In this document: positions 7,751-25,839 of the stretch, in pieces | Numbering within the stretch: the first letter of the stretch is position 1 | Layout: each line of letters starts with the position of its first letter | NCBI GenBank assembly: GCA_044222475.1 | Contig: JBGANF010000008.1 | Coordinates: forward strand, 1-34,687 | Length of the DNA: 34,687 bases | DNA from: Polyangiaceae bacterium | GTDB taxonomy: Bacteria; Myxococcota_A; Polyangia; Polyangiales; Polyangiaceae | Direction: 5' to 3' | Program-made: the position numbers and the translations under genes | Notes under the pieces: model-generated | What the model was told of the DNA's origin: nothing | The model's database searches: none | Seen by the model: the letters and a program-made list of their open reading frames with translations, nothing else

Positions 7751-9040
7751 CTAGTTCGACGCGAACTTGCTGGACGGGTACTTCTTCGCCGCGTCGTCCA
7801 AGTGGGTCTGCACCATCTCGGCCGTGATGACCTCGGGCAGGAGGTCACGCGTACCGTCGGGGTACACGATCATGTAGTCCGGGATGCCGGACCGACCCGT
7901 GCTGTCGAGCAGCGCATCGAGCTCGTCGTTCGAGTTCGTGAAGTCGACCTTCATCGGGAGCACCTTCGTTCGATCGAAGGCGTTGCGCACCGTGTCGGTC
8001 TCGATGAAGGACTTCTCGTTCACCTTGCAGGTCGCGCACCACTCGGCCGTGAAGTCGAGGAACACCGGGCGTCCGCGCGCATGCTCGGCCTTGATGCGCG
8101 CCTTGTCGTACGGGACCCACGCGATGTGACCGTCGACGATGACCGGCGCCTCGGCCTTTGCCGTGGTGGTGACGTCGGTCGAGGCGACCGCGACCGGCTC
8201 CGGCTTGGCGAAGCTGACGATGAAGAACCCGGCGCCCGCGACGAGCCCGATCTGGAGGAAACGGACCGCCCAGCGACGCACCGGCGGCGCCGCGACGCCA
8301 CCGAACCGACCGCCCGCCCAGAGCGCGAGCGCCAGGACGAGCAGGAAGATGAGGAACGAGTTGGCGCTCTGCGGAGTGAGCTGCGACTGGAGCGTGCGGA
8401 AGAGCCAGATCGCCGTGCCCATGAGGGTGAAGCCCATGACCTGCTTCAACGTCTCCATCCAGCGGCCGGGCCGCGGGAGGATGCGCGAGAACGCCGGGAT
8501 CAACGTGAGGAGCAGGTACGGCAGCGCGAGGCCGAAGCCGATCGTCGCGAAGACGAGGAGCGTCTGCCACGGGGCCGCGTCCGAGCCGAGCGCGAACGCG
8601 ACCGCGGTACCGAGGAACGGCGCCGAACACGGCGTGGACATGATCGCGGCGAAGAGCCCGTTGAAGTACGAGCCGGAGAACTTGTCGTCATCGCCGCCTT
8701 CGGCGCTCGACGAGAGCGTGATCTCGAACACACCGAGCGAGTTGAGACCGAACGCGAAGACCAACGCGACCATGAACGCGACGAACTTCGGCTGCTGGAA
8801 CTGCATGCCCCAGCCGAGGTGCTTGCCCGACGCCTTGATGACGAGGACCAGGATGGCGAGCCCGACGAACAGCGTCATGGTGCCGAGCGTGTAGGCGAGG
8901 CCGTGGAGGCGCCGCTTGTGCGCGTCGTGCCGGGCGTGGTCGACGACGCTCATCGCCTTGAGCGCCAGCACCGGAAGGACGCATGGCATCACATTGAGGA
9001 TCAGCCCGCCGACCAGTGCGATTCCGAGAATTCCGAGCAT
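7751..9040 (-). CDS. dsbD: Protein-disulfide reductase DsbD family (CcdA-like TM beta-domain fused to C-terminal thioredoxin gamma-domain; no alpha domain)
   Basis: Conserved TM Cys pair (NVMPCVLPV ... STPCSAPFLGTA). C-terminal thioredoxin fold with WCATCK active site. ~8 TM segments. Convergent with the Cys-rich cassette (7-nt gap to the 7743 stop). Confidence 0.8.
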   Translation of the reverse strand: MLGILGIALVGGLILNVMPCVLPVLALKAMSVVDHARHDAHKRRLHGLAYTLGTMTLFVGLAILVLVIKASGKHLGWGMQFQQPKFVAFMVALVFAFGLNSLGVFEITLSSSAEGGDDDKFSGSYFNGLFAAIMSTPCSAPFLGTAVAFALGSDAAPWQTLLVFATIGFGLALPYLLLTLIPAFSRILPRPGRWMETLKQVMGFTLMGTAIWLFRTLQSQLTPQSANSFLIFLLVLALALWAGGRFGGVAAPPVRRWAVRFLQIGLVAGAGFFIVSFAKPEPVAVASTDVTTTAKAEAPVIVDGHIAWVPYDKARIKAEHARGRPVFLDFTAEWCATCKVNEKSFIETDTVRNAFDRTKVLPMKVDFTNSNDELDALLDSTGRSGIPDYMIVYPDGTRDLLPEVITAEMVQTHLDDAAKKYPSSKFASN

Positions 9041-9204
9041 GGCCTACCTCGCGTCCTTGCAGAACGTGCTCATCTCACCATGACAAAGCAAGCCGCGCGC
9101 CGGGTTCATTCCCTAGAAGTTTAGCAGAGATCCGGCCGCGTCCACTACCCGGACTGGATCACCGAAGGCTCAGCAGCGGATAGCCGAGAGACCTGTCCAT
9201 ATGG

Positions 9205-9933
9205 CTATGATGGCGCCATCTTGGCGAGGGTTGCTTTGGCCATGCGTACCTCGCCAGCCAGGGCGATCGCCATCGCGGCGCGTGCGGCCTCGGTGCGACG
9301 GACGAACGCGTCGAGGTAGCGCTTCGCGACGCCGAACTCGCCAGCCGCGTAGGCGAGGTGCCCGAGCACGAAGCGCCCGTACCCTTGACCACACGGTGCC
9401 GTCGCGAGCTCGTCGATCGTGCCCTGGAGGTCGTTGACGCGCTCCCCCGCCGAGATGCGCGCGAGGGCGAGGTGAGCCCGGTAGAGCGGCTTGTCGCGCG
9501 TGCCCCAACGCACGGCGCGCTGGAGCGCGGACACCGACTCGTCGTAGCGATGCGCGAGGAACAGCACGCTGCCGAGGGTCCACAGATGAAACGGCCGGCG
9601 CGACGCCGGGCCGCGCCGCGCCGCGGCGCGAAGGTGGGATACCGCCTCCTCGAGCTGGCCGCTCGCGAGCGCGGCCCGCGCGGCGTCTTGGTGAAGGACG
9701 TCGGGGAGGATCTCCAGCTCGAGCGCGCTCTCCACGGTCTCGAGGGCGGCGTCGAACCGCTCGGCCTCGAAATACGCGAGGTAGAGCTGGCGCAGCAGCA
9801 TCGCGTGCGTCGTCCGATCGATGGGAGCGCGGGCGGCGAGGCCCTGCTTGGCGAAGCGTGCGCGAGACGACCAGGACCGCGCGGTCATCGCACGTTGGAG
9901 GAGCTCTTCCGGTCTGGGCACGCGGCCAGGCAT
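9205..9933 (-). CDS. TPR-like (all-helical Ala/Leu-rich repeat) hypothetical protein
   Basis: Protein-like helical repeat composition. The opposite-strand ORFs are RG-rich junk. No catalytic motifs recognised. Confidence 0.5.
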   Translation of the reverse strand: MPGRVPRPEELLQRAMTARSWSSRARFAKQGLAARAPIDRTTHAMLLRQLYLAYFEAERFDAALETVESALELEILPDVLHQDAARAALASGQLEEAVSHLRAAARRGPASRRPFHLWTLGSVLFLAHRYDESVSALQRAVRWGTRDKPLYRAHLALARISAGERVNDLQGTIDELATAPCGQGYGRFVLGHLAYAAGEFGVAKRYLDAFVRRTEAARAAMAIALAGEVRMAKATLAKMAPS

Positions 9934-10020
9934 GGGCCGAAATCATTGTAGCATCCAGGTTTTTCGCGCGCACAAGCGGTTTCCACTCTGCACCCGGCGT
10001 GCTAATTCGCCCTACCTGTC

Positions 10021-10326
10021 ATGTCGGCCATGTCGGATCGCTTCGTCGCTGTCGTCACGCTCGTCGCGCTCGCCTTGCTGGTGGGCTGCGGGCGCAAGGC
10101 GACCGAGGCCGATTGCCAGGTGATCGTCGACCAGATGGTCGTCGTGAAGATGAAGAAGAAGAACAACACCGATCCGGCGGCGGTCACCAAGCTCCAGGCC
10201 GAGCTTCGCGAGGAAGCCAAAGGCGAAGTAATGGATGGCTGCGTCGGTCGGCGAATCAGTGACGGCGCTCTCGATTGCATCAAGAAGGCCGAGACCCAAG
10301 AGGAAATCATCACGTGCATGCGCTGA
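10021..10326 (+). CDS. Small lipoprotein, 5-Cys family (copy A)
   Basis: Signal peptide plus canonical lipobox LLVGC. Mature pattern C-GRKATEAD-C ... C-x12-C-x12-C. It is lower GC and Lys/Glu-rich, unlike GC-artefact ORFs. Confidence 0.55.
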   Translation: MSAMSDRFVAVVTLVALALLVGCGRKATEADCQVIVDQMVVVKMKKKNNTDPAAVTKLQAELREEAKGEVMDGCVGRRISDGALDCIKKAETQEEIITCMR

Positions 10327-10634
10327 CCCGTCCCGCGATTCTCCCGCTTGCGCTGGGATGCGGGTTCGCGATCGTGCTGGCCACTTCGGCGTGTCGTCGC
10401 AAGGCGACGGAGGCGCAGTGCGATGCGCTGGTCGATCACTACGCGGAGCTCGCGATGAAGGAGCAGTTCCCCGACGCCGGACCGGCGGAGATCGAAGCGC
10501 AGCGAAAGCACGTCCGCGAAGAGTCGAAGGGCGACGACGACTTCAAGAACTGTACGTCGGAGGTCGAGGCTGCCGACTACGCCTGCGCCATGAAGGCGAC
10601 CACGACGGAAGGCGTCGAGCGCTGCCTCGAGTGA
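10314..10634 (+). CDS. Small lipoprotein, 5-Cys family (copy B, paralog of copy A)
   Basis: Same motif C-RRKATEAQ-C ... C ... C ... C as copy A. Likely GTG start at 10314 (the alternative TTG at 10275), so it overlaps the end of copy A. The signal peptide has a lipobox-like ATSAC. Confidence 0.5.
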   Translation: MHALTRPAILPLALGCGFAIVLATSACRRKATEAQCDALVDHYAELAMKEQFPDAGPAEIEAQRKHVREESKGDDDFKNCTSEVEAADYACAMKATTTEGVERCLE

Positions 10635-10638
10635 GCGC

Positions 10639-10962
10639 TCACTTCTTCTTCACGGCGCGGCCGCTGAAGACCTGCTTGCCGTTCTCCATCGACGGCTTGT
10701 CCGATACCTGCCACACGGCGTCGCCGCCGAGCTTGCACACCTGATCGAGGAGCTCGCGCATGCAGTCGTCTTCCTTGACGAGCGTCGCATCGCACGACGC
10801 GCGAACGGGACCGATGTTCGTCGTCGCGACGTTCGGCGCGTCGCGGTAGACCTCGACGTCACAGCCGGCGGGCCGCTCGGGGAAATTCGGGGTCGCGTTG
10901 TGACCGCCGCCGCATGCCGCGAGAGCGAGCGCGCCAAGGGTGAGCGTGCCGATGAGTCTCAT
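10639..10962 (-). CDS. Small lipoprotein with 5 Cys (unrelated to the A/B family)
   Basis: [20 protein letters not shown] signal peptide and lipobox. Only the last 107 codons of the track ORF 10639..11346 are protein-like. The ATG overlaps the glyQ stop as ATGA. It ends 4 nt from the convergent lipoprotein B. Confidence 0.55.
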
Positions 10963-11879
10963 GCGCGTGCCTCCGCGTGCTTGGACTTTCCGTCGAGGAG
11001 AGGAAACCCGAGCGCCTCGCGCTGCGCGAGGTACGCCTCGGCGACGGCCTTCGCGAGGCCGCGGACGCGCCCGATGAAGCGCGCGCGCTCGGTGACGCCG
11101 ATGGCGCCACGAGCGTCGAGGACGTTGAACTGGTGCGCCGCCTTGACGACGAAGTCGTACGCGGGCAGCACGAGTCGCTTCAGCGGCTCCTTCTCGCTCC
11201 CGAGCGCGAGGAGGCGCTTCGCCTCCTTCTCGTAGTGGTCGAAGTGAGCGAAGTGCGCCGCCGTGTCGGCCTGCTCGAAGTTGTACGTGCTCCACTCCCA
11301 CTCGGCGCGCTTCGCGATCTCGCCGTAGCGGACGCCCTTGGCCCACATCACGTCCATGATGTGGTCGACGTCCTGCAGGTACATCGAGATGCGCTCGAGG
11401 CCGTAGGTGAGCTCACCCGAGACCGGCTTGCACTCGATGCTCCCGACCTGCTGGAAGTACGTGAACTGGCTGATCTCCAAGCCATCGAGCCAGACCTGCC
11501 AGCCGAGACCCCACGCGCCGAGCGTCGGCGACTCCCAGTCGTCTTCGACGAAGCGCACGTCGTGCTCTTCCGGCACGGTCCCGATCGCGCGGAGCGACTC
11601 GAGGTAGAGATCCTGGATGTCGATCGGCGACGGCTTGAGGATCACCTGGAACTGGTGGAACTGCTGGAGCCGGTTCGGGTTGTCGCCGTAGCGGCCGTCG
11701 GAGGGACGACGCGACGGCTCGACGAACGCGACGTTCCAGGGCTCGGGGCCGAGCGCACGAAGGAACGTCGCCGGGTTGTAGGTACCGGCGCCGACTTCGG
11801 AGTTGTAGGGCTGAACGATGAGGCAGCCGCGTTGCGCCCAGAAATTCTGCAACCCGAGGATGATGTCTTGGAAGTACAT
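10959..11879 (-). CDS. glyQ: Glycine--tRNA ligase alpha subunit
   Basis: Full-length (306 aa). It aligns by eye with the E. coli GlyQ consensus, for example [55 protein letters not shown] and [24 protein letters not shown]. Confidence 0.92.
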
Positions 11880-11881
11880 GG

Positions 11882-14800
11882 TCAGTCGATTCGAGCGAGG
11901 AGGTCACGCGCGAGTTGGCGTGAAGGGTCGTCGTCGATCGCCCGTTTCAGTAGCATCACCGCGCGCTTGTTGTCGCCGGCTTCGAGCGCGAGCTCGCCGA
12001 GGCGCTCGTAGGCTTCGGCGCGCGACATTGGAGCCTGGGCGCGGAGCATGGTGATCGTACGGAGCGCGCGTGTCTCGATCTCGGTGCTGCCGAGCTCGCG
12101 CGCGACCCACGCGAGCTCGGAGGCGACGGCGCCGTTTTGGCCGTCCATGTCGAGCGCGGTGCCCAGCATCGCGAGGTCGTTCCCGCGATCCCCGGAGGCG
12201 CGGGCTACGCGGGCGAGGCGGAGATAGACGTGCGACAGCTCCTTGCTGCGGCGGCCCTTGTGCTTCTCGAGGACGGCGCGCAGGAGCTCGTCGGCGGCGG
12301 CGAGGTTGCTCTGACCGATGTACGCGTCGGCGAGGAGGCTCGTGCACTCGAGGTCGCCCGGTTTGATCTCGAGCGCGCGGCGGAGGACGTCGGTCGCGGC
12401 GGTGGCGTCGCCGCCTTCGCCGAGGAGGAGCGTCGCGGCAGCGACGTAGAACGGCAGGCGCTTCGGCGGCTCGGGGATGCGCTCGGCCTCCGCGATGCGC
12501 AGCGCCGCGAGCGCCTGAACGTCGCCCAGTGCGCCGTAGATCTCGCCGAGCTTCTCGCTGACGCGTTCGTCCTCGGGGGCGAGGCGATGTGCGCGTTCGA
12601 GTCCGGCGCGCGCATACCCCGGCGAGCCGGTGCGGGTCGCGCGATCGACGAGGCGGAGCGCGATCTCGGCGACCTCGGCGTCGGGGACGACCTCGACGAG
12701 ACGCGCGAGGACGTCGGTCTCGGCGTCGACGCGATCGGCGCGGGCTTCGAGGTCGGCGAGCGCGCGAAGCGCTTCGGCGTCCTGCTCGTGGGTCTGGAGG
12801 ACCTGCTCGAGCTGGTTCCGCGCGTCGTCCGTCCGACCGAGGGCGTCGCAAAGCGTCGCGAGTCGCACGCGGTACGAGCGTCGATCGTTCTCGTCCGTCG
12901 TTCCAGCGGCGGCGAGCGCGAGGATCTCGGAGAGGTGCTCGGCGAGCCGGCCGTCGTCGCGATACGCCGCTTCGCCGCTGTCGACGGCCTCGGCGAAGCG
13001 CTCGGTGCGAAGCGCGAGGCGCGCCCGCTCGAGGAGCCACGCGGCCTGCATCGGGGTGCCGCTGACCTGGGACTCGAGGTTCGACAGCTCCTCCCACGAC
13101 GAGGCGACGTCGTCGGCGTCGGCGAGGGCGCGGTAGTACGCGATGTGGGTCGTGTCGGCGGCTCCTGGGATCGCGTACGCGCCGCGCATCACGCGGACGA
13201 CACCGGCCGTGTCGCTGATCGCTCCGTAGTGGCGCGCTGCCTCGAGGAACGCTGCTTCGGCCTCGGCCGGAACGAGCGCCGCGGCCGTCGTCTCGTGGAG
13301 CTTCGCGAGCTTCGCGGCGTCGTTGCGTTCGGTGTAGATTGCAAGCAATCGCTCGCGGAGGTTCGCGCTCTCCGGAGCGGCGGCGAGACCGAGCTCCAGC
13401 GCGCGCTCTGCGCCCTCGCTGTCCCAGGCTTCGTTGCGGACGGCGAACAGATCGAGGGCGAGCTTTTCGCCTTCCTCGCCCCGGGTCTGCTCGAGCAAGC
13501 GCTCCAGCAGCTCCGCGCGGTCGACGCCCTCCGATGCCGGGATGACGCGCAACGCGCCGCGGAGGAGCTCGGGGTTCTTCGCTTCCCAGTCGAGCCCGGT
13601 CGCGTACACCGAGCGCGCCTTTTCGGCGTCGTCGCCTTCGAGCAGCTTGCCCAGTCGCGCGGCGACGGTGGCGACCCCCGGAGCGTCGGCGCGGTCGCGC
13701 GCGGCTTCGAGTCGTCGTTCGAGGAGGGCGACGAGCTCGCTCTTGTCACCGCTGCCCTCGAGCAGGTCGACGAGGACCGTCGCCGCGTCTTCGGAGAGCG
13801 GATCCTCTTCGAGCACTTCGCGCAGCTCGGCGATCGCTTCGGTCGCTCGATCGAGCGCGGTCGCGAGCAGCTTCGCGTGCTCGACGCGGAGGGCGCTTCG
13901 CTCCGGGGATGCCGAGTGGAGCGCCGCCGTCGTACGCAGAGCTTCTTCGAGCTCCTCCTTCGTCCCGTGGGTTCGGAGGAGCGCGAGCAACGTGCCGCGC
14001 AGCTCGAGGTCGTTGGGCTCGGATGCGAGCACGGCTTCGATCGCCTCCCGCGCGATCGCTGGCGTCGTCCCGGCCGCCTGCGCGACTTCGAGGCGGAGCT
14101 TCCTCGCCTCGGCGGGGGGCAGCGTGGTGGCCGCCTCGAGGCGGAGCCGCGCGGCCAGGGCGGGATCGCTCGCTTCCCGAAGCGTCGCGAGCTCGAGGCG
14201 CGCCCAGCGTCCGAAGTCGCCCTCTTCGCTGATCGAGCGCTCCAGGATCACGTCGGCGACGTCGAGCTTGCCGGCGCGCTTCGCCTCCTCGACGCCTTCT
14301 CGGTAGAGCTCCGGCGTGCCGCAACCGGCGCGTGCCGAGAGCTCGATCGCGCGGAGCAGCCGCTCGGCGTCTCCTCGCGTTCGGGCGATGCGTTCGTAGA
14401 GGTGGAACAGCGCGGGCTCGGTCGCGCCCTCGAGCGCCGGCTCGAGGATCTTCAGCGCGCGCTCGTGATCGCTCTGCTTCTCGAAGGCGGATTTCAGGAG
14501 AGCGGCGCCAGAGGCCCGATCGCCTCCGGGCTTCAGGCGCAGCTCTGCGAGTCGATACTCCGCGTCGGCTGCGGCCTTGGGGTCCTTAGCGCCTTCGGCG
14601 AGCGCCGCGATCAACCGCGCGAGGACCTTCTCCTGGCGCGGGTCGTCCGTCTTCGCGTAGGTGCGATCGAGGGCTCGGAGGACGTCGGCGTTCAGCGGAT
14701 CGGCGTCCGACGCGCGCTCGAGGACCGTTGCGGCCCTCGCGGAGTCGCCGGTCTCCTCTTCGATCACCGCTGCCGCGCCGTGGAGAAGCTGCGCTGCGTC

Positions 14801-17800
14801 CTTGCCGTTCCCTTCGCTCGCGAGGCGATCTCCGAGCGCGAGGAGGCGCTCCACGTAGCGCTCGGTCGTGCCGCTCTTCTTCGCTCCAGCGAGCGCGGCG
14901 TCACGGAGGGCGCGGCTCGCGGGGGCTGCCTCGAGCGCCGTGAGCCGGGTGTCGAGCGCGCCTGCGTCGTCGCCGAGCTCTTCTTGTGCCCGCGCCATGT
15001 CGGCGAGGACTTGGGCGCGCTTCTCTCCACCCTCGGCGCGCTCCAGCCGGCCGCGGAGGGCGCGCAACAGGAGGTCGTTCTTCTTCTTCGCGCGCAACGC
15101 GTCTTCGAGTCGAACGGCCTCCGCGTCGGACGTCGTCGCCGCTTCGAACGCGGACTCGACGATCTCCGCTGCGCGCTCCTTCTCGTCCTGGCGATCGGCG
15201 ATCTCGGCGAGCTCGATGAGGACCTCGCTTCGCGCGACGGTCATCCCGTCGGAGTCGCGGCGCAGCACAGAGAGGAGGGCGCGGTACGAGCGCTCGGCCT
15301 TCTCGAGCTGGCCGTCGTCACGCGCGAGCTCGGCGACCATCCGGAGGATCTCCGGGTTGGCGGGATCGATGCGGGTCGCCGCCTCGAGCTCGGCGAGAGC
15401 GGGCGTGCGCTCGCCCAGCGCGAGCAACAGACGAGCGAGGTGGAAGTGAACCTGCGCGCGCTCCTTGGGGCGTCGTCCGCCGAACGCGTCGAGCATCGAG
15501 CGGAGGAGGGTGCGCGCGTCGTCGGGGCGGCCCGCCGCGGTGAGCGCCTGCGAGAGTCGGAGGCGAAGCGCGCGATCGTCGGGGGCGAGCTCCGCTGCTT
15601 CGGACAGGAGCTCGGCGGCTCGGCCCGGAGCCTGGCATCGCGTGAGCCAGAGATCGGCGGCCTCTTCGAGGCCGCGACGCTTCTCGGCGGGCGTCTCGGC
15701 CTTCGACGCTTGACGGGTGAGCAGATCGGCGAGCGGCGCATAGAGCTCGGCTTTGCGGTAGAGCTCGGCGAGACGCTGCGGGACCTCCGCCGGCGACCCC
15801 GTCGCTTCGACGGCTGCTTCGAGGTGACGCCGAGCGTCCTCCTCGTGACCGGCGGTGACGAGGGCGTCAGTGAGGCGGAGGATGACCCCCGCTCGTCGAT
15901 CGGGGAACTTGTGAAGCAGCCGCTCCAGGTACTGCGCCGCGGCCGAGTGGTCGCCCTGGCGTTCGTGGAGCTTCGCGATGGCGTCGAGGTCGTCGGCCTC
16001 GACGACCAACGGCAGCACGCGCTGGAAGTAGCCGAGCGCCGCCGCCGTGTCGTTCTGGCGGGAGTCGGCGAGAACGGCGGCGCGACGGAACATCGTCGCC
16101 GCGGCGTGGATGTCCCCTTCGGCCTCGGCGAGGTGGGCCTGTTCGGCAAGGAACGCGATGAGCTCCGCGTTGCGACCAGCGGCCTCGAGGACGTCGATGA
16201 TCATCGCCGCGCTCTCGGCGTGGCGCGGCTGCTCGCTGAGGTTGTCCTTGAGGAGCGCCAGCGCTGCGTCGGTCTTGTCGAGCGAGCTCTCGAGCGCCGC
16301 GGCGTCGAGTCGAAGCGGCAGCCGCACCGCAGCGGTCGACGCGCGCGCGATCTGCCGCTTTCGCAGCGCGAGGAGATCCGGGCGGCGATCCAGCGTGCGA
16401 AGCACCGCCGCCAAGCGCTCGGCCGCGAGCGCATCATCGGGGTCGTCGCCTTCGAGCTCGGCGTACAGTCGGAGGGCGGCCTCCTGGTCGCCCACGCGCT
16501 CGAGGGCCATGCGAGCGGCCTCGTGACGAAGCTCGCGCGCGCGCGCGGTCTCGAACGGGAGGCGAGCGGTCTCCGACAGCAGGCTGACGATGCGCTCCGC
16601 GTTGCCTTCTTCGTTGTGGATGCGCACGAGCTCGCCCATCGCCCACTCGACGTACTCTCCGGGGTGGCGCGGGGAGCCCTGGGTCAGCGGCGCCTCTTCG
16701 GTGTCGGCTTCGCCGACCCAGCGCTCGGAGGCGAGCTTCAGGAGGCGTTCGAGGATCGTCTTCGCGAGCCCGCGGTCCACCACGACACTCGCGGCGACGT
16801 CCGCCGCCTCGCGCAGGAGCTCGGGGTCGCCGCCGGTCGCCTGCGACAGGCGCAGCAAAGTCTCGATCAGGGGGCGCCCTCGGGTGCGACGCTGGAGCTG
16901 AGCGAGCGCCCGGAGGAGGTCGGCGTTCGTACCATCTTGGGACAGCGCGCGGGCGTACGCTGCTTCGGCGGCGTCGGGATCTCCGCGGCGATCGCGGTGC
17001 CACGTCGCGATGCGCGCCTCGAGATCGCGGACGACGTTCGCGGGCAGGCCGCTGCGCTCGGCAAGCGCGGCCTCGAGGGCTCCAGTGGCCGCGTCCCAGC
17101 CGGCGTTGCCGGTGACCCGAGCCTCCAGCTCACCGAGCAGCAGGTCGTCGACCTGCCCGAGCGCGGCAGCTCGGTCGATGATGACGCGCGCGGTCGCATC
17201 CCAACGCTGTACGCGGGCGCCCACGCGAACGGACGCCACTCCCGCGACCTCGTCCAACGGCGCCTCTTCGGCGACCCGGAGGTACAACGTCAGCGCGGTG
17301 CGCGGATCATCGAGGTGTTGCTCGAGCACGTCAGCGAGGCCTTTCCGGAGCCTCGGGATCGCCTCGCCGGTCGTGCCCGAAGCCTCGAGCGTCTCGAGGA
17401 CGGTCCTCAGGACCTCGGCGCGTGCGCGCTGATTGTCCGACACGGCGGCGAGACGCGCGAGGGTCGCGTCGATCGCGATGTCGCCGCGCGAGAGCACGAA
17501 CGCATCGCTGCACGATCGAAACGCGGCGGCGGGGTCGAGGCCGCGATCCTCTTCGAGCTTCGCGGCCTCGAGGAGGATCGCGATTCGCGCTTGGTCGTCG
17601 GCGGCGATGCGAAGTCGGTCGCTCTGGAGCTGCAGCACGTCCCGCCACGCGTCGCGAGCGCGGTGGTCGGCGAGGAGGACGTCCATCGCCGACGTCGCCG
17701 CGTCGCCGTCGCCGAGGAGCGCGGTGAGGCCCGCGATCGCTCCGGGGTGTCCCGACTCGGCTTCGAGCGCCGAGCGGTAGTCCACGACCGCCTTCGCCGT

Positions 17801-20800
17801 CGCTCCCAAGTGCACTCGCCGGAGATCGCCGAGGCGCACGAGGATCGCCGCGCGTGACGCTTCGGGGGCGCTCTCGGCGGCGCGCACGAGGAGCTTGGAC
17901 AGCTTCTTCCAGTGCGATCCGCGCTCGTAGAGGTCGGCGAGCGCGAGCGTGCTGTCCTCGGTCGCGCCGAAGTCGTGCTCGATGCCCTCCCACGCCTTGA
18001 TGGCCGCCTCGTCGTCGGCGAGCTCGCCGCCGAGCAAGCGCGCGGCGCGCACTCGATCGGCCTGCTTGTCCGCTTCGCTCGGCAACAGTCGCGCGCGCCG
18101 CTCGAGCGCCTCGTACAGCGGCCGGTGACGACCGCTCGCCTCGAGAATCGCGACGAGACCGTGAAGCGCCACGAGGTCGGACGAGTCTTCGGCCAGTCGA
18201 GCTTCCCACGCGGCGATGCCGCGATCGATCTCACCGAGCGACGCCGCGAGGCGCGCCGCCTCGCCAAGGGCGCCACGGCGCTCTTCGGTGCGCGTCTCGA
18301 GCTGAGCGATGCGCTCGAGGACCCCGAGTCGCTCCGGTTCGCGTCCGGCGCGCTCGAGCAAACCCTCGAGCGGACGCGCCGCGCGGAGGAGCACCTCGTG
18401 GTCGACGTCGAACGCGAGGACGCGGAAGTAGAGATCGATCGCCCGACCGGGATCGGCGAGGCGGTCGGAGTGCACCACCGCGGCCTCCATGAGCAGCGCG
18501 ACGCGTAGCTCGTCGCCTTCGCACTCGTCGGCGGCTGCGGCGAGGACCTCGGCGAGGCGATCGTGGCGTCCGGTGCGCTCGGCGAGAGAGGCCAATTTCT
18601 GGCGATGGGGGGCCGAGTCGGGCTCGAGCATCACGAGCGAGACTCCGTGCGCCAGCGCAGCGACGTCGTTGCCGATGCGCTCGTAGAGCTCGACGAGCTC
18701 GCGGTGTCGCCGGATGCGCTCCTTCGCGCTCTTCACGTCCTCGAGCTCGACCTCGAGGACACGCGCGAGATCGACGTCGCGTCCGAGCTGGGCGTAGCGC
18801 TCGCGCAGCAACCCGGCGGCGCGTTGGCGCACGAGCACTCGCTTGCTGCGGCTGCTCTTGCCCGGCGGTGGAACCGATGCGCGGGGCGGCGCAACCGAGG
18901 CACGCGCCGGCGGAACCGACGCGCGGGGCGGCGGGATGGACTCGTACGCCTGGGCGATGCGCTCGCTCAACGGCGAAGAGGTCGGGGGAAGCGTCTTCTT
19001 GAGCTCCTCCGCCGGCGGAGCGGCGGTGAGGATTTGCTCGAGGAGCTCGCGGGTGGTGTCGCCTTCGTCTCCGTCAGCGATCATGGCTTCGACGACGAGG
19101 AGCGCCGACCCTGCGTCCGAGAGCTCGTCGAGCCACAGTCGCGCGATCCGGCCGCGGAGCTCCGCGATCTGCTGCGGAGTCTTTCCGCCGAGCTGCGCCT
19201 CGAGGAGGCCGACGAGCTCGCGGTGTCGGCCGTGGCGCTCGTAGAGGCGCTCGAGCGAAGCGATCAGTCGATCGTTCTTCGGTTTTCGGAGGAGCAGCGC
19301 TTCGAGGTACCGCATCGCGCGGTCCGCGTTCTTGGCGAAGTCCTTGGCGATCTGAGCGGCGTCGGCGAGGAGCTCGACGCGCCGCCCGTCGTCCAGATCG
19401 GTCGCGAGGACGCGGTCGTAGAGCACGAACAGCTCGTCCCAGCGCTCGGCCGCGTCGTAGAGGAGCTTGAGGCGATCGAACGCCCAACCGCCCGGATCGA
19501 CGGTGACGATTCGATCGAGGATCTTCACCACGCCCGTTCGCTCTTCGAACCACTCTTCGTGGAACGCGACGGCGCGCTGGCCGAGCTCCTCCGCCTGTTC
19601 ACGATCGGAAACCCGCGCCACCACGCCCTGGTAGAGCTCCGCGAGATCGAGCGGCTGATCGAGATCGCGGGCGAGCTGCTCGGCGCGATCCCATCGATCG
19701 GCCACGTTGGGCAGCTCGTCGAGCGCCCGCAGGATCGCGGCGAACTCTTCCTTCGGTCCGCGAGCGCTCGCAGCCTCGATCGCGCGATCGTGCCAGGCCG
19801 CACGCCGCTCGGGCGACGCGGAGCGTGCGCCTCGGAGCAGCGCGTCGAGCGCGCGCGATTGCGCCTCGGCGTCGCCGGCCTTCGCGATCGTCTCTTCGAG
19901 CAGCGCAGCGGCCGCGTCGCCGGCCTCGGGATCGGCGACGAGGTCGGCGGTGAGCTTCAGGGCCTGTGCATCGTCGGGAGCGAGCGCGAGCACCTTGCTC
20001 AGCTCGTCGAGGGCCTCGCGAGCGCGGCCGCCTTGCGAGACGAGGATCGCCGCGACGTCGCCGCGGATGCGACGCGCACGGTCGGCGTCGGCCCCGTTCA
20101 GTTGATCGCGCAGAGACGCGAGCGCGCCATCGACGTCGCCGCGGGCGAGCGTGATGCGCGCGATCTCGGTCGCGGCTCCGGTCGCCGGATCGACGACGTT
20201 GGCCTCGCGGTAGAGCTCGAGCGCGCGATCCGTGTCCTGGAAGCGGGTCTCCGCCGTGCGTGCCCAGTCGAACAGCACGACCCCTCGCTCGGGCCCGCCC
20301 GCGCGTCGAGCGCGCTCGCTGAAGAGCCACTCCCAATCGTCGCGCGGCGCCGACTCGGGGTGGGTTTGGAACAGCAGCCCCATCTGGGCGAGCGCGTGGA
20401 CGCGGATCGCGTCCGCCACGCGATCGTTCTCCGCGAGCGCGCGGAACGACGACGCGGCGTCACCGATGGCGTCGGGGAGGTTCGCCAGCACGGCGGCGCG
20501 CTCGAGGAGGATCGGGGCTCGGGCATCGACGTCCGCGATTTGGGCGAGCGCGCCGTCGACTGCGCGCAAGAACACGTCCGTGTGTCCGCTCTCGCGCGCG
20601 AGTCGCGACGCGAGGGCGAGGGCTGCGGGATCTTGAGGCGCGTCGCCGAACGCGCGCATCGCTGCGTCGAACGCGCCGTCGCGATCGCCGCAGCGCTCGA
20701 GCGCGCTGGAGAGGTGCAAGAGCGCGTCGCGTCGCTCCTCCACCGTCGCGGCGGCTTCGACGCGAGACGCGTAGAGCTCGGGGAGGAGCGCAGTCTCGCC

Positions 20801-23800
20801 GCCGTTCTCTGCGATGGCGATCAGCTTGAGGGTCGCGTCGCGATCGTAGGGGGCGATCTTCCGGATGCGCTCGAAGAGACGGCGCGCGGTCTTGATGTCG
20901 TCCACCTTCTCGGCGATGGCGGCGGCGCGATGGAACGCCGACACCGCGCCGGCGATCTCGCTTCGCTCGACGAGCACGCTGCCGAGGCGAGTGAGCCACA
21001 TCGTGCGCTCCTCGTCGTTCTCCGAGGCATCGGCGCGGCGGGACATGACGTCACCAAGCAGCGCGCGCTCCTCGAGCTGCTCGGCGACGCGCTCGACGAG
21101 ATCGAGGTCGGTCGCGGTCGCGAGCTCGTCCTCCACGAGGGCGCGCGCGTGGGCGATGGCGCGATCGCGCAGGCCGTGCGCGGTGGCGAGGTCGGCGATG
21201 CGTGCGTGCAGCGCGCGCTCGTCCGCGCCGGGGGCCGTCCGTACGAGCTCGTGTTCGAGGATGCGGCACGCTTCGAGCCACGCGGACGACTCGAGGTACA
21301 GCGCGAAGAGAGCTTCGGCCGACCCACGGTCGTCGGGATCTTCCTCGAGCGCTCGCACGAGGGTGGCTTGCGCTGCGGTCACGTCACCGAGCTCGGCTCG
21401 CTGGAGCTGCGCGATCCCGGCGAACAGGGTGCGGCGCTTCGCCGGGTTCTGCTCGACCTGGAGCGCGCTCTGGTAGAGCCGCAGCCGATCCTCGGGGGTT
21501 CCCTGGTCACGCAGGAGGAGCTCCACGCTCGCCATCACGTCCGGCGACGAAGGAGCGAACGCGAGCGCGCGCTGGAACGCGTCCAGGGCGCCTGCGCGAT
21601 CGCCGGCGCTCATCGCCGCGTCTCCCGCAGCGCGAGCGAGGGCGAGGAGCTCCGGGCCATCGACGGCTCGGTCACCGAGCGCGCGCCGAAGGGCGGTCGC
21701 GCGACGACGAGCGCCTTCGTCGCCAGGAGCGAAGTGATCGATCGCGCCGATCCACGGAGCGAGCGCGGCGCCCGACTCGACCGCATCCCCGAGGGCGGCA
21801 GCGGCGAGGTCGAAGGCTCGCGCACGCTCCTGCGGCACCGATTCGGCTGCTGCGAGCGCGGCGGCGGCCGCGGCGAGCCTCGTCGGGGCGTCGGGACCGC
21901 GGGTCGCGCGAACGCATTGAACGTGGAACAGACCGGCGTTCGCGCCCTCGTGGCGGTACACGGGCTCGAGCACGTTCGCGGCGGCGATCGCGAGCGCGTC
22001 GTCCTTGCCGTCGAGCAATCGCTCGAGCGCGTCGCGGCTCGTGGTCTCGTTCGGGTTGGCCTCGAGCGAGGACGCGAAAGCCTCGATCGCCCCGCGGGGG
22101 TCTTGGAGGTTCTGCGCGCGGAGGATGCCGAGAGTCGCGAGCGTGCGCGCGCGCTCCTCGCCCGACCAGAGGTTCGACGCCATCGTCAACGCGCCATCGA
22201 GCGCCGAGAAATCGCGTCGGAGCTCGAGGAGCGGGATCCATCGTGCGACCGCCTCGCGCGAGGGGCCGAAGCGACCGATGAAATCGCGCCACGCCGCGGA
22301 GGCGGCTTCGATGTTGCCCGACGCTTCGGTGAGAGCTTCGGCGGCTCGTTGGAGCAACGCTCGTTGCTCTTCGACGTCCGTCGAGTCTTCCGCGCGAGCG
22401 CGGAGGACCTCTGCCAAGCCGATCGCATCGCCGATGTCGCCGAGCAACGGCTCCAGCGCTGCGAGCGCCTTGGCGCGCGCCGGCGTGTCGAGGAGCGCTC
22501 GCCACGAGCCGATCGCCCGAGCGGGATCTCCGAGAGGTCCGGCGGCGAGCGCCGCGAGCCGCTCGGCCGCGGCGAGGCGGCGATCGGGCTCGGGCTCGAC
22601 GCGCGCCATGCGATCGAGCATGTCCGCGAGCGATGCGTTGTCCTCTTCTTCCTCGTAGAGGCGTGCGAGCGCGCGCACCGCGCCGAGGGTCGCCTCGTCG
22701 GTTGCTCCCGGCACGGAGAGCGCGCTCGAGAACGCCGCGCGAGCGCGGCGCACGTCGCCGTTGGCGAGCAGGAGCTCGCCGCTCGCCGTGCTCAGGCGCG
22801 CGCGTGCGTTCGGATCCTTGGCCAAGCCGAGAAGCCGCGTGAGCGTCTTGGCGCTCGCCTCGTGCTTGCCGAGGACGCGAGTGAGGTTGACGTAGCGCTC
22901 GACGAGAGCACCATCGTTGGGATCGAGGCCGAGCGCGGCGTCCGCCGCCTCGTAGGCACCGGCCGGATCGTCGAGGTGGTCTTCGCGCAGCGCCGCGAGC
23001 GCGCGAAGGACGAACGCACGCCTCGGTCCGCGCGCTTGCTCGAGCTCGAGCATGTAGTAGCGCGCCGCATCGGAGTACGAGCCTGCCATCTGAGCGGCGC
23101 CCGCGAGCGCGGCCGCTGCTCGCGCGACAGTGGCGCGACCTTCGAGGAGCTGCACCGCGACGTCGTGAGCGCGCACGTCGTCCGGGTGCTTGGACAGGAT
23201 CCACTCGACGTGCGGGAGGCTGCGCTCGAGCTCGCCGACGCCGGCGTAGGCGTCGAGCAGCTTCCAGCGCATGTCGAGCTGAACGTCGTCGGCCGGCGCC
23301 GGGTCGTGGGTCAACGCTTGCTCAAGGAGCTTCGCGACCTCGCGCGGCCGATTCGCGCGAGCGAGTGCGTCGAGGAGACGCGCTCGTGCCTCGTCGTCCT
23401 TGGGATCGATTCGGACGAGCACGGTCAGCGCGTCGGCGACCTTGTCGACGGCGTCGACGCGCTCGTACGCATCTGCGGCCTTCCGATAGAGGTTCACCTG
23501 CTCGGCGCGCGGTCTGTGCGACGCGAGCTCGGCGTACATGTCTCCGATTCCGATGAAGTTTCCGTCGCGCGCGAGGATCTCCTCGCGTCGGGCGAGCGAG
23601 CCTGCGTGAGTCGGAACCGCGGCGAGCGCTCGGTCGAGGTACGCGGCGGATCCCATCTCGTCGCCGAACGCGTCCCCGAAGAACACCGCGGCTTGGAACA
23701 TGAACTCGGCGACGACGCCGGCCTGGAGCGTGCGCAACCGGCGGTCGCCGGTGAGCTGCTCGAACGCGAACGCGAGCTCGGCGAGGCGTTGATCGCGCTG

Positions 23801-23962
23801 AGCCGCTTGCCCGAGGCGATCCCATGCACCGTCGTCGAGCTGTCCCTTGCTCATCGCGAGAAGGAACGCGTCCAACACATCGGCTTCGTTTTCGAGGCGG
23901 GTATCGAGCGATGCGAGGACGGCTGCTAGTCCACCGGTCGCGCGGTTACGAGGTTCGGTCAT
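11882..23962 (-). CDS. Giant (4026 aa) all-alpha TPR-like repeat protein, function unknown
   Basis: A single uninterrupted 12,081-nt ORF. Its translation is consistently helical and Ala/Leu/Glu/Arg/Asp-rich, with recurring TPR-like hairpins (for example ...[32 protein letters not shown]...). The reverse-strand ORFs (1906 aa and 1788 aa) are RG/RR-rich artefacts. The stop lies 2 nt before the glyQ start. It contains one short 8-aa internal repeat, [23 protein letters not shown]. No catalytic motif recognised. Confidence 0.8.
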
Positions 23963-24043: not shown

Positions 24044-25339
24044 TCAGGTCGCGATCGTGCGGTATGGATCGCCCGACGAGGGCGTATTGCCGTTTTTCCC
24101 TCGAATGAGGCCGGCCGCGCGGGTCGCCACGACGGTGCCGATCCCCAGGAAGACGACCGCGAAGGTGACGATTCCACCGATCCACGGCAGCGAGCCGAGG
24201 ACGAGGAAGAGTGCGCAACCCACGAGGAGGTGGACGTGCGGGCTGTCGCTGCGGTGCCCGAGCAGGGCCTTGCCCGCCGTCGCGAGCACGGCACACACAC
24301 CCGCGTAGCTCGCGAACACGGCGGCAGGAACGGCGACCACTGCAACGGGGATTCCGATCACGCTCACGCAGAGCGCGACGACGAGGACGATGCCGGCGAT
24401 GAGGCCGACGATGCCCATCGCGAACGTGCGCATCGGTCGCGCGGCGACCTCGGCGCGCAGCGTGTCCATGCGCTGACCGGCGAGGGCGAAGAGGACGGCG
24501 CCGAAGACGAAGAGGAGCGCCGAGCGCGCGAGCGCGTCGCCGATCTGCTTCAGCACGCCGGACTTGTGCTCGCCGTCGCCACCGACGGTCACCGCCGATC
24601 CGACGACCGACTTCGAACCGCGATTCAGCACGCCACCGACGACGCCGACCTGGCCGTCGATCTGAGCGTCGTCTTCCACGTCGAGCTCGCCGCCCACCGC
24701 CGTCGCGTTTCCGACGATGTGGGCACCCTTCACGACCTTCAGCGTCCCGCCCGTGACGACCGCGTTGCCGGTCACCGTTCCTCGGACCGTCAAGTCGCCG
24801 CCGACCACGCTCACGTCGTGAACGATTTCGTTCGCCTCGATGACGGCGTCGTCGCCGTTGACGACGCGGTCCGATCCGCGGACCGACGGGAGCGGTGCGG
24901 CCTTGAGCGCCGCGGAAGGTGCCTCGAGCGGCGCTGCGTCCGCCTCAGCGGCGGTCGCGGCCGGTGCGGGCGCCGCCGTCTCGGCGCTGCGAACCGAGAC
25001 GAGTGCGCCGTCGCGCTTCGCGGTCCACTTTCCGTCCGCGAGGACGATGTCGAGGATCTTCGACGGGCTCTCGTCCTTCACGTGAAGGTCGATGCGGTCC
25101 TTGTCGCCGTCGACGTCGTCCATGCGGAGGACCAGGTTCCACCCCGCTGCCTCGGCGAGCTTGGTCAGCGCGTCGTGGCGAGAGACGTGCGCGAGGTCGA
25201 GCGAGACCTTCTTCTCCTCGGCGGGCGTCGGCCAGGTGCCGGTGCGCTCGACGTCGGCGAACGCGAGGGACGTCGTCGCGAGCAGCGCGGCGAGGGTGGC
25301 GGCGAGAGTCACGGGACCTACGGCGACGCGCTTCATCAT
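24044..25339 (-). CDS. Membrane protein: signal peptide + STN-like (secretin/TonB N-terminal type) domain + Ala/Pro linker + bactofilin/DUF4097-like beta-helical repeat + C-terminal 4-TM bundle
   Basis: MMKRVAVGPVTLAATLAALLATTSLAFA signal peptide. VSLDLAHVSRHDALTKLAEAAGWNLVLR...ILDIVLADGKWTAKRDGALVSV resembles the STN signalling domain. VVGGDLTVRGTVTGNAVVTGGTLKVVKGAHIVGNATAVGGELDVEDDAQIDGQVGVVGG resembles polymer-forming/bactofilin or 'putative adhesin' beta-helix repeats. Four C-terminal TM helices. The ATG overlaps the anti-sigma stop (ATGA). Confidence 0.65.
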   Translation of the reverse strand: MMKRVAVGPVTLAATLAALLATTSLAFADVERTGTWPTPAEEKKVSLDLAHVSRHDALTKLAEAAGWNLVLRMDDVDGDKDRIDLHVKDESPSKILDIVLADGKWTAKRDGALVSVRSAETAAPAPAATAAEADAAPLEAPSAALKAAPLPSVRGSDRVVNGDDAVIEANEIVHDVSVVGGDLTVRGTVTGNAVVTGGTLKVVKGAHIVGNATAVGGELDVEDDAQIDGQVGVVGGVLNRGSKSVVGSAVTVGGDGEHKSGVLKQIGDALARSALLFVFGAVLFALAGQRMDTLRAEVAARPMRTFAMGIVGLIAGIVLVVALCVSVIGIPVAVVAVPAAVFASYAGVCAVLATAGKALLGHRSDSPHVHLLVGCALFLVLGSLPWIGGIVTFAVVFLGIGTVVATRAAGLIRGKNGNTPSSGDPYRTIAT

Positions 25340-25839
25340 GACAAGACTCCACGTTGGGTGCGCGACGCGCGCGCGATGATCGCGCCCGAGAGCGCGAGGA
25401 CGGCAAAGACGGAGAACGCGACAGCGGCACCGAACGGACCCTGGGTGAGCGCTGCCGCGATCGCGCCGGCGGCACCGGCGAGCTGCGGAACGAGCTCGGG
25501 GAGCGAGGTCGCGATCGAGAGGGCGTGGAACGAACGATCCGCGAGTGACGGAGCGAGGCCGAGCCCCGCGAGCGCAAGTGCCGCGAGGACGAGGCCGGCG
25601 GGGAAGCGCCGCGCGGCCCGCGTGCGCTCGGCGGCGACCGGCGCGAGAGCGACACCGACTTCGAGGGCGAGCGTCGCGAGGTTCGCGAGTCGACCCGCGC
25701 ACTGCGTGCACGACTCGGCGTGATGCGACGCTTCGTCGCCGACGATCTCGATCTCCCCATCGCCGAGCGCGGCCAGCGCCGCGTCGGAGAGGTGGCCGTC
25801 TTCCAGCCAGAGATCCTGTGGTTGCAACGTGCGACTCAT
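25336..25839 (-). CDS. Anti-sigma factor, zinc-finger (ZAS, HxxxCxxC) type with C-terminal TM region
   Basis: 167 aa. ASHHAESCTQCAGRL is the HX3CX2C zinc motif. Two C-terminal hydrophobic segments. Its start overlaps the ECF sigma stop by ATGA. Confidence 0.7.
   Translation of the reverse strand: MSRTLQPQDLWLEDGHLSDAALAALGDGEIEIVGDEASHHAESCTQCAGRLANLATLALEVGVALAPVAAERTRAARRFPAGLVLAALALAGLGLAPSLADRSFHALSIATSLPELVPQLAGAAGAIAAALTQGPFGAAVAFSVFAVLALSGAIIARASRTQRGVLS

What the first reader, a model, noticed from the sequence alone, without database searches (positions are those of the whole stretch)
10639..23962. glyQ has no glyS partner and is sandwiched, with 2-nt and 4-nt junctions, between the giant TPR gene and a Cys-lipoprotein gene
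In alpha2beta2 GlyRS bacteria, glyQ is normally followed by glyS. Here the giant ORF stop is 2 nt before the glyQ ATG. The glyQ TGA overlaps the ATG of a 107-aa 5-Cys lipoprotein (ATGA). No glyS is anywhere in the window. An essential housekeeping aaRS subunit translationally coupled to a 4026-aa protein is odd. It may reflect gene rearrangement, a moonlighting GlyQ, or coupling of giant-protein expression to translation capacity.
Basis: partly seen in the sequence, partly recalled or inferred. Interest (0 to 1): 0.6.

Follow-up and report, generated by a model that had tools for sequence, protein, structure and literature searches.

The report
Ordinary glyQ, unlinked from glyS
This is a normal glycyl-tRNA synthetase alpha-subunit gene in a Polyangiaceae-type myxobacterium whose whole clade has glyQ away from glyS; its tight packing behind a giant TPR gene is local gene-order drift, not a special coupling.

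Summary
A 4026-aa TPR ORF (11882-23962, minus strand) ends TGA-cc-ATG before glyQ (10959-11879). The glyQ stop overlaps the ATG (ATGA) of a 107-aa, 5-Cys lipoprotein ORF. No glyS is in the window.

It is ordinary.
- GlyQ is canonical. It passes the curated glyQ equivalog cut-offs, and dN/dS is 0.06 against a 96%-identical relative.
- All 11 related loci with GlyQ at least 76% identical also lack glyS within the 1.3-10 kb of DNA held around glyQ.
- Relatives at 73% identity or less mostly keep glyQ-glyS, and one has three genes inserted between them. The split is therefore a clade trait, not an assembly artefact.
- Unlinked glyQ and glyS are already published for Aquifex and Helicobacter.
- The giant gene sits directly upstream of glyQ in only some relatives, with spacers of 2, 15, 22 and 558 nt. 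It lies 7.7 kb away in one relative and is absent in at least eight.
- The better conserved pair is glyQ plus the lipoprotein gene, adjacent in 6 of 6 independent contexts. The lipoprotein's predicted fold resembles RcsF, and it lies beside other 4-Cys lipoprotein genes and dsbD.

I could not locate glyS for this clade. Its presence elsewhere in the genome is inferred.

The parts
11882..23962 (-). Giant gene encoding a 4026-aa, all-helical TPR-repeat protein. No signal peptide is evident on reading the N-terminus, and Pfam finds no catalytic domain.
   Evidence: ORF. Pfam finds only TPR/ARM-like families. GC3 is 0.86. Orthologues: L171, called at 4018 aa and 81% aa identity over the 3012 residues held, dN/dS 0.19; L083, 48-52%; L084, 37-39%.
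11880..11884 (-). Junction TGA-cc before the glyQ ATG, a 2-nt spacer. No Shine-Dalgarno sequence lies in the 20 nt upstream.
   Evidence: Sequence. L171 has a 22-nt spacer (gccgactaagacggaagcgccc) at the same place, so the window differs by a 20-nt deletion. L083 has 15 nt. The P0196 contig has 558 nt.
10959..11879 (-). glyQ, glycine--tRNA ligase alpha subunit, 306 aa.
   Evidence: PF02091 E 5e-141. TIGR00388 464 bits against a cut-off of 361. PDB matches: 5f5w E 2e-126, E. coli 7eiv E 1e-122. dN/dS 0.06 against L171. D67, R76, E141, E162 and R169 (E. coli numbering) are conserved.
10970..10974 (-). GGAGG Shine-Dalgarno sequence for the lipoprotein gene. It lies inside the glyQ 3' end, 7 nt before the ATG.
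   Evidence: Read from the sequence. L171 has GGAGAGG at the equivalent place.
10959..10962 (-). ATGA stop/start overlap between glyQ and the lipoprotein gene.
   Evidence: The same 4-nt overlap is called in L171, the P0204 contig and the P0196 contig.
10639..10962 (-). Gene for a small lipoprotein (107 aa) with lipobox Cys17 and four invariant Cys (34, 57, 67, 76). The predicted fold resembles RcsF/YbjQ.
10314..10634 (+). Convergent small gene (106 aa called in L002) for a lipobox, Cys-rich protein. It ends 4 nt from the lipoprotein gene's stop.
   Evidence: Gene calls in L002 and L171. Translation. Conserved in L003 by tblastx, 47%.
10021..10326 (+). Second small lipoprotein gene on the + strand, just upstream of 10314-10634 and so also convergent with glyQ. 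It encodes a lipobox, 4-Cys protein that looks paralogous to the one at 10314-10634.
   Evidence: Translation. TIGR04454 Lepto_4Cys at 33 bits, just under the cut-off of 35.
9205..9933 (-). Small TPR protein gene, part of the block that stays syntenic with glyQ and the lipoprotein gene.
   Evidence: Pfam TPR_16 and TPR_2. Same position in L083, L171 and the P0204 contig.
7751..9040 (-). dsbD-type gene for a thiol:disulfide reductase (DsbD_TM plus a thioredoxin-like domain), part of the same syntenic block.
   Evidence: PF02683 and PF13899. NF001419 DsbD subfamily E 5e-38, below its curated cut-off. Same position in L083, L171 and the P0204 contig.

Best explanation
glyQ here is the ordinary, functional gene for the catalytic alpha subunit of the alpha2beta2 glycyl-tRNA synthetase. 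It lies in a Polyangiaceae-type lineage in which the ancestral scpAB-glyQ-glyS-ppdK arrangement was broken, so glyQ now sits apart from glyS.

Shown:
- The split is shared by every close relative sampled.
- The flanks of glyQ differ from genome to genome.
- In one sub-clade glyQ lies between a giant TPR gene and a small RcsF-fold lipoprotein gene.
- The spacer between the giant gene and glyQ varies (558, 22, 15 and 2 nt). The window's 2-nt spacer differs from its nearest relative by a 20-nt deletion.

Inferred:
- glyS is intact elsewhere in the genome, probably still next to ppdK, because the alpha subunit alone is essentially inactive.
- The 2-nt junction reflects neutral compaction and puts glyQ on the giant gene's transcript. 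It says nothing about a shared function.
- glyQ is translated by termination-reinitiation, or from a short-leader transcript that starts inside the giant gene's 3' end.
- The lipoprotein gene is translated from its own GGAGG sequence and is coupled to glyQ through the ATGA overlap.
For: - Canonical GlyQ. Strong purifying selection (dN/dS 0.06).
- Most loci keep the operon: 129 of 168 glyQ loci have glyS immediately downstream.
- The window's clade does not: the window, its two copies L001/L002, and 11 relatives with GlyQ 76-96% identical have no glyS in the locus DNA held, which covers 1.3-10 kb on the downstream side.
- Sister lineages at 70-73% identity keep glyQ-glyS (L005, L090). L174 has three genes inserted between glyQ and glyS.
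- scpAB and ppdK flank the operon in those outgroups but are never near glyQ in the split clade.
- Apart from the window, L171 and L083, which share one block, only glyQ itself matched in the tblastx comparisons run between clade loci. Several loci have a divergent gene immediately upstream of glyQ.
- Giant-gene adjacency is patchy.
- The clade-specific GlyQ substitutions (D32N, E134Q, M140L, T143S) also occur in relatives that keep glyQ-glyS adjacent, so they predate the split.
- Literature: the alpha subunit alone has no or extremely low activity. glyQ and glyS are 854 kb apart in Aquifex and separated by several genes in H. pylori (PMC8464048).
Against: - glyS of this clade was never located.
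- No promoter-like or terminator-like site was found around glyQ, and there is no SD sequence before its ATG. How an essential enzyme is expressed adequately behind a 12-kb gene is therefore unexplained.
- The giant gene is directly upstream of glyQ in 4 of the 6 contexts that carry the lipoprotein gene. That is more persistent than a purely random neighbour would be.
- The glyQ-lipoprotein pairing is conserved in 6 of 6 contexts down to 45% lipoprotein identity. This could reflect more than hitch-hiking.
Confidence: 0.8

Rival explanations
1. The giant TPR protein and GlyQ are functionally linked. The tight junction would exist to couple their synthesis, either for co-regulation with translation capacity or because GlyQ moonlights as a partner of the TPR scaffold.
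For: - The giant gene is directly upstream of glyQ in the window, L171, L083 and the P0196 contig, and lies within 8 kb in L084.
- There is no SD sequence and only a 2-nt spacer in the window.
Against: - Spacer length is not conserved (2, 15, 22, 558 nt).
- gltBD and other genes are inserted between the two in L084.
- L092 and the P0204 contig have glyQ-lipoprotein with no giant gene upstream.
- L003, L091, L093-L096 and L004 have no giant homologue in the DNA held upstream of glyQ, which is 0.9-10 kb depending on the contig.
- Giant homologues L085-L087 are not followed by glyQ.
- GlyQ carries no substitutions specific to the giant-linked subset.
- Equimolar coupling of an abundant housekeeping enzyme to a 4026-aa protein would be very costly. 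This last point is my inference.
Confidence: 0.05
2. glyQ and the RcsF-fold lipoprotein gene form a selected two-gene module. An envelope-associated lipoprotein would be deliberately co-expressed with, or physically linked to, GlyQ.
For: - The pair is adjacent in all six independent contexts recovered: the window (L001/L002 are the same organism), L171 (L172/L173 are the same protein in other samples), L083, L092, the P0204 contig and the P0196 contig.
- Four of these share the same 4-nt overlap.
- In L083 the two are one in-frame 395-aa ORF.
Against: - The lipoprotein has a signal peptide and lipobox, so it is exported, while GlyQ is cytoplasmic.
- The lipoprotein is absent next to glyQ in L003, L091, L084, L093-L096 and L004.
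- The L083 fusion comes from a long-read assembly whose giant gene is visibly frameshifted, so it may be an error.
- The lipoprotein fits the adjacent cluster of 4-Cys lipoprotein genes and dsbD better than it fits glyQ.
Confidence: 0.07
3. This glyQ is an extra, diverging paralogue, and a canonical glyQS operon exists elsewhere in the same genome.
For: It cannot be excluded directly, because only 34.7 kb of this genome is available.
Against: - GlyQ is 60-68% identical to GlyQ of unrelated phyla and exceeds the equivalog cut-offs. dN/dS is 0.06.
- In the GTDB scan, the two nearest species genomes (WQYX01, DAOMZH01) each gave one glyQ locus among the 80 best. A canonical second copy at about 70% identity would have ranked there. 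The caveats are that these are MAGs and that the scan depends on exact peptide patterns.
- Signature residues are shared with single-copy glyQS relatives.
Confidence: 0.05
4. The arrangement is an assembly or chimera artefact that joins the giant gene to glyQ.
For: None found.
Against: The identical junction occurs in two independent ENA assemblies (L001, L002). The same gene order occurs in L171/L172/L173 and L083, which come from other samples and assemblers.
Confidence: 0.01

Closest known systems
Unlinked glyQ and glyS genes of Aquifex aeolicus VF5 and Helicobacter pylori G27 (alpha2beta2 GlyRS)
   Same: A canonical alpha-subunit gene stands apart from the beta-subunit gene. The two are 854,211 nt apart in Aquifex and separated by several genes in H. 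pylori (PMC8464048). My own scan also found glyQ without an adjacent glyS in Aquificota, anammox (Brocadia-type), Desulfofustis and Spirochaetes loci.
   Different: The split here is an independent event inside the Polyangia. Sister lineages keep glyQ-glyS, and L174 shows an operon interrupted by three genes. The distance to glyS in this genome is unknown.
Canonical glyQS operon (E. coli, Geobacter, Myxococcia, Sandaracinaceae-type Polyangia)
   Same: The GlyQ protein is the same: a full-length PF02091/TIGR00388 match, with five of the six E. coli residues named in PMC8464048 conserved.
   Different: glyS does not follow glyQ. The downstream, stop/start-overlapping gene is a 107-aa lipoprotein gene. 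The SD sequence seen before glyQ in Geobacter and related loci (GGAGG) is absent here.
RcsF, the outer-membrane stress-sensor lipoprotein of Enterobacteria (PDB 2y1b)

Membership tests
GlyQ (glycine--tRNA ligase alpha subunit; PF02091, TIGR00388, NF006827) | Full-length match above the curated family cut-offs | tested here: met
   PF02091 469 bits against a cut-off of 27, covering profile positions 1-278 of 278. TIGR00388 464.3 against 361.45 and NF006827 464.2 against 369.
GlyQ (glycine--tRNA ligase alpha subunit; PF02091, TIGR00388, NF006827) | Active-site, Mg2+ and ATP residues defined in E. coli GlyRS (D67, R76, E134, E141, E162, R169; PMC8464048) | tested here: inconclusive
   D67, R76, E141, E162 and R169 are invariant. 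E134 is Gln in the window and in all 13 sequences of the split clade. It is also Gln in L090 and L005, where glyQ-glyS are adjacent, and in L174. It is therefore a Polyangia-wide variant compatible with a normal operon. The biochemical effect was not tested.
GlyQ (glycine--tRNA ligase alpha subunit; PF02091, TIGR00388, NF006827) | A cognate beta subunit (GlyS, PF02092) encoded in the same genome | not testable with these tools
   Only 34.7 kb of the genome is available, and the source contig is not in the look-up collection. The GlyS search returned other lineages only.
glyQS operon | glyS immediately downstream of glyQ on the same strand | tested here: not met
   No GlyS similarity anywhere in the window (best E 0.24) or in 11 related loci. 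The downstream gene is a 107-aa lipoprotein gene.
Translationally coupled operon (giant gene, glyQ, lipoprotein gene) | Same strand, with stop/start overlap or a gap of a few nt | tested here: met
   TGAccATG and ATGA.
Translationally coupled operon (giant gene, glyQ, lipoprotein gene) | Co-transcription, and dependence of downstream translation on upstream translation | not testable with these tools
   This needs RNA-seq, TSS mapping or reporter fusions. The consensus scan found no promoter or terminator in 10200-12600, which is weak evidence in a 70% GC myxobacterium.
Bacterial lipoprotein (Lgt/LspA substrate) | N-terminal signal peptide ending in a lipobox [LVI][ASTVI][GAS]C | tested here: met
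   [20 protein letters not shown]. The Cys is invariant in all 19 family members aligned. No dedicated predictor was run.
RcsF family (PF16358) | Sequence match to the family model | tested here: not met
   No Pfam or NCBIfam hit at E 0.01 or better.
RcsF family (PF16358) | RcsF fold with two disulfides formed by four conserved Cys | tested here: inconclusive
   [not shown]

The most novel reading that the evidence does not exclude
The conserved, stop/start-overlapping pair of glyQ and an RcsF-fold lipoprotein gene is a selected module. It is found in 6 of 6 contexts and as a single fused ORF in L083. Such a module would tie synthesis of an envelope (disulfide-dependent) lipoprotein to the GlyRS alpha subunit. 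Alternatively, the unlinked GlyQ has acquired a second role connected with the neighbouring giant TPR scaffold.
Probability: 0.05. Interest if true: 0.55.

Novelty: new member of a known kind. Interest (0 to 1): 0.15.

Why it matters
It matters little for GlyRS biology. The case adds the Polyangiaceae to the lineages in which the two GlyRS subunit genes are unlinked (Aquifex and Helicobacter are the published examples). It also documents stages of operon decay within one class: intact, interrupted by three genes, and fully separated.

It is a caution against reading function into very tight junctions in compact, high-GC myxobacterial genomes.

Two by-products may be useful to annotators:
- a small, Pfam-less lipoprotein family with an RcsF-like predicted fold, lying next to other 4-Cys lipoprotein genes and dsbD;
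- a conserved family of roughly 4000-aa TPR proteins in Polyangiaceae.

Tried and rejected
- Homologue search with the whole 4026-aa protein timed out. I repeated it with the C-terminal 1200 aa.
- I tried to locate the clade's glyS by searching with the L005 GlyS and inspecting three hits. P0127 and P0086 lie in canonical glyQS operons. P0079 lies in an operon interrupted by three genes. None belongs to the split clade. Clustering 21 GlyS hits did not reveal which might.
- The first literature search on gene order gave nothing useful. The second found PMC8464048.
- The sigma-70 promoter and intrinsic terminator scan of 10200-12600 found nothing. Rfam and tRNA scans of the whole window found nothing, so there is no T-box or other leader RNA.
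- The afdb50 fold library was unavailable.
- I considered and rejected the idea that the E134Q, D32N, M140L and T143S substitutions mark a functional shift tied to the loss of glyS linkage. They also occur in L090 and L005, which keep glyQ-glyS adjacent.
- I considered a gTGATA motif as the glyQ promoter in the window. It is present in five clade relatives and in L090, but absent from the window and L171.
Full report
**1. The observation**

The window is 70% GC. On the minus strand, a 4026-codon ORF (11882-23962) ends with TGA. Two bases later comes the ATG of a 306-codon ORF (10959-11879). That ORF's TGA overlaps, as ATGA, the ATG of a 107-codon ORF (10639-10962).

- The middle ORF is glyQ. 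It matches PF02091 end to end (E 5e-141). It exceeds the curated equivalog cut-offs of TIGR00388 and NF006827. It aligns at E 1e-122 to 2e-126 with the solved alpha subunits of Aquifex and E. coli.
- The upstream ORF encodes a helical-repeat protein rich in Ala, Leu and Arg. Pfam finds only TPR and ARM-type families in it.
- The downstream ORF encodes a signal peptide, a lipobox (LAAC) and four further Cys.
- No GlyS-like sequence exists anywhere in the window. Seven GlyS queries gave a best E of 0.24.
- The junction is real. Two independent ENA contigs carry the identical sequence, and a 258-kb JGI contig of a related species has the same gene order.

All stated facts are therefore confirmed. 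Junctions of 0-7 nt between genes with unrelated Pfam domains occur several times elsewhere in this window, so the tightness is not exceptional.

**2. Is an unlinked glyQ unusual?**

I collected 168 glyQ loci from GTDB species genomes, JGI metagenomes and look-ups.

- 129 of the 168 have glyS immediately downstream.
- Thirteen of those without it are contigs that end within about 550 nt of glyQ.
- The window, its two short copies and 11 distinct relatives with GlyQ 76-96% identical all lack glyS. The relatives are L171, L092, L003, L091, L084, L083, L094, L093, L096, L004 and L095. No glyS is found anywhere in the DNA held for these loci, which extends 1.3-10 kb downstream of glyQ.
- The named relatives are Polyangiaceae or Polyangium MAGs.
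- The next-closest GlyQs (70-73% identity) behave differently. L005 and L090 have glyQ-glyS adjacent. In L174, glyQ and glyS are separated by three inserted genes: a ROK-family gene, an FG-GAP gene and one without a Pfam hit.
- In those outgroups, scpA/scpB precede glyQ. ppdK follows glyS in 28 loci. Neither is ever near glyQ in the split clade. I infer from this that glyQ, not glyS, left the ancestral neighbourhood.

Unlinked glyQ also appeared in Aquificota, anammox, Desulfofustis and Spirochaetes loci. The literature already records a distance of 854,211 nt between the two genes in Aquifex aeolicus and several intervening genes in H. pylori (PMC8464048). The split is therefore a clade-level rearrangement of a known kind.

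**3. Is this GlyQ still an ordinary GlyQ?**

- dN/dS against L171 is 0.06. For comparison, it is 0.19 for the giant gene and 0.27 for the lipoprotein gene.
- Five of the six E. coli residues named in PMC8464048 (D67, R76, E141, E162, R169) are invariant.
- The clade does carry Q at E134 (a Mg2+-associated residue), N at D32, L at M140 and S at T143. The same residues occur in L090, L005 and L174, which keep glyS beside or near glyQ. These are older Polyangia signatures and unrelated to the split.
- The alpha subunit alone has no or extremely low activity (PMC8464048). A glyS gene elsewhere is therefore inferred. I could not find it.
- The two nearest GTDB genomes each gave only one glyQ locus among the 80 best hits. 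This argues, weakly, against a second canonical operon.

**4. Is the giant gene a meaningful partner?**

Homologues of its C-terminal 1200 aa exist in Polyangiaceae-type sequences. The contexts are:

| Context | Arrangement |
|---|---|
| Window | giant, 2 nt, glyQ |
| L171 (giant 81% aa identity) | giant, 22 nt, glyQ |
| L083 (48-52%) | giant, 15 nt, glyQ |
| JGI contig with P0196 | giant, 558 nt, glyQ |
| L084 | giant, then convergent gltDB and two other genes, then glyQ 7.7 kb downstream |
| L085, L086, L087 | giant homologues not followed by glyQ |
| L092, P0204 contig | a divergent, unrelated gene upstream of glyQ |
| L003, L091, L093-L096, L004 | no giant homologue in the DNA held upstream of glyQ (0.9-10 kb) |

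Apart from the window, L171 and L083, which share the block described in section 5, only glyQ itself matched in the tblastx comparisons I ran between clade loci. The window's 2-nt spacer is L171's 22-nt spacer minus 20 nt. This is the pattern of a lineage-specific neighbour whose spacer has been eroded. It is not the pattern of a conserved coupling device.

**5. The better conserved neighbour**

The lipoprotein belongs to a tiny family: 16 database clusters of 101-133 aa, none with a Pfam domain. The lipobox Cys and four further Cys are invariant.

Every member whose context could be seen lies directly after glyQ. These contexts are the window, L171 (L172/L173 carry the same protein in other samples), L092, L083, the P0204 contig and the P0196 contig. 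Four of them have the same 4-nt overlap.

Downstream lie two convergent genes for lipobox, Cys-rich proteins. One scores just under the TIGR04454 Lepto_4Cys cut-off. After them come a small TPR gene and a dsbD-type gene. This block is syntenic in L083, L171 and the P0204 contig. The lipoprotein therefore seems to belong to an envelope thiol/disulfide neighbourhood at whose edge glyQ has come to rest.

**6. How it probably works**

The giant gene, glyQ and the lipoprotein gene are on one strand with no room for a promoter between them. No consensus promoter or terminator lies in 10200-12600.

- The lipoprotein gene has a GGAGG sequence 7 nt before its ATG, inside glyQ.
- glyQ has no SD sequence.
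- In five clade relatives and L090, a gTGATA motif sits 15-20 nt before the glyQ ATG. It resembles an extended -10 element, which would give a very short leader. The window and L171 lack it.

I therefore infer that glyQ in the window is transcribed with the giant gene, from an unrecognised promoter in that gene's 3' end, or both. Translation would then be by termination-reinitiation or SD-independent initiation. This step is not shown.

**7. Verdict**

The finding is an ordinary housekeeping gene in a lineage-specific, partly conserved but clearly drifting context. It is a new example of a known kind of arrangement, and interest is low.

The main open point is the location of glyS. The only mildly intriguing residue is the persistent pairing of glyQ with the RcsF-fold lipoprotein gene, together with a possibly artefactual fused ORF in L083.

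Noticed in passing
[not shown]
   Followed up: partly
window 7751-10634: There is a cluster of envelope redox-type genes: two convergent small genes for lipobox, Cys-rich lipoproteins that look paralogous (10021-10326 and 10314-10634, +; the first is near the TIGR04454 Lepto_4Cys cut-off), a small TPR gene (9205-9933, -) and a dsbD-type gene (7751-9040, -). The cluster is syntenic in L083, L171 and the P0204 contig.
   Followed up: partly
L083 15305-16492: glyQ and the lipoprotein gene form one in-frame 395-aa ORF. The junction is 41 nt shorter than in the window, removing the GlyQ tail, the stop codon and the start of the signal peptide. The same long-read contig has a visibly frameshifted giant gene, so this may be an assembly error or a real fusion.
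   Followed up: partly
L084, L092, L003, L091, L083, L090: 15-20 nt upstream of the glyQ ATG: A conserved gTGATA motif (possibly an extended -10 element, implying a very short or absent leader) precedes glyQ in five clade relatives and one glyQS relative. No SD sequence accompanies it. The motif is absent in the window and L171. Geobacter-type loci have a classical GGAGG instead.
   Followed up: partly
window GlyQ residues aligned to E. coli D32, E134, M140, T143: There is a Polyangia-wide signature N/Q/L/S at positions that are at least 93% conserved (D/E/M/T) in about 150 other GlyQs. It includes E134, a Mg2+-associated residue whose Ala mutant loses about 11-fold in glycine activation in E. 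coli. L090 and L005, which keep glyQ-glyS adjacent, share the Q, L and S; L005 has S rather than N at the first position.
   Followed up: yes
L174 2797-10079 (GCA_034680565.1): This is an intermediate state of operon decay. glyQ is followed, with a 4-nt overlap, by a ROK-family gene, then an FG-GAP gene and a reverse-strand gene. glyS lies 4.3 kb downstream, with ppdK two genes further on.
   Followed up: yes
window 11882-23962 (-); L171, L083, L084: The giant TPR protein is a conserved Polyangiaceae family of about 4000 aa (called at 4018 aa in L171). Identity is 37-81% and dN/dS 0.19. No non-TPR domain was detected. In L083 an ECF sigma factor gene lies two genes upstream, and in L084 an HSP70-like gene lies two genes upstream. 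Function unknown.
   Followed up: partly
28 glyQS loci, e.g. L012 13073-15736, L089, L174: ppdK (pyruvate phosphate dikinase) follows glyS, directly or within two genes, across many 'deltaproteobacterial' lineages. This linkage could help locate the lone glyS in Polyangiaceae genomes.
   Followed up: no
window 24044-26038 (-): The 664-aa ORF 81 nt upstream of the giant gene has only faint similarity to the STN / PilQ secretin N-terminal region (E 0.009 and 1e-4, far below the cut-offs). The coding frame in 24-27 kb is ambiguous, with several long overlapping ORFs.
   Followed up: no
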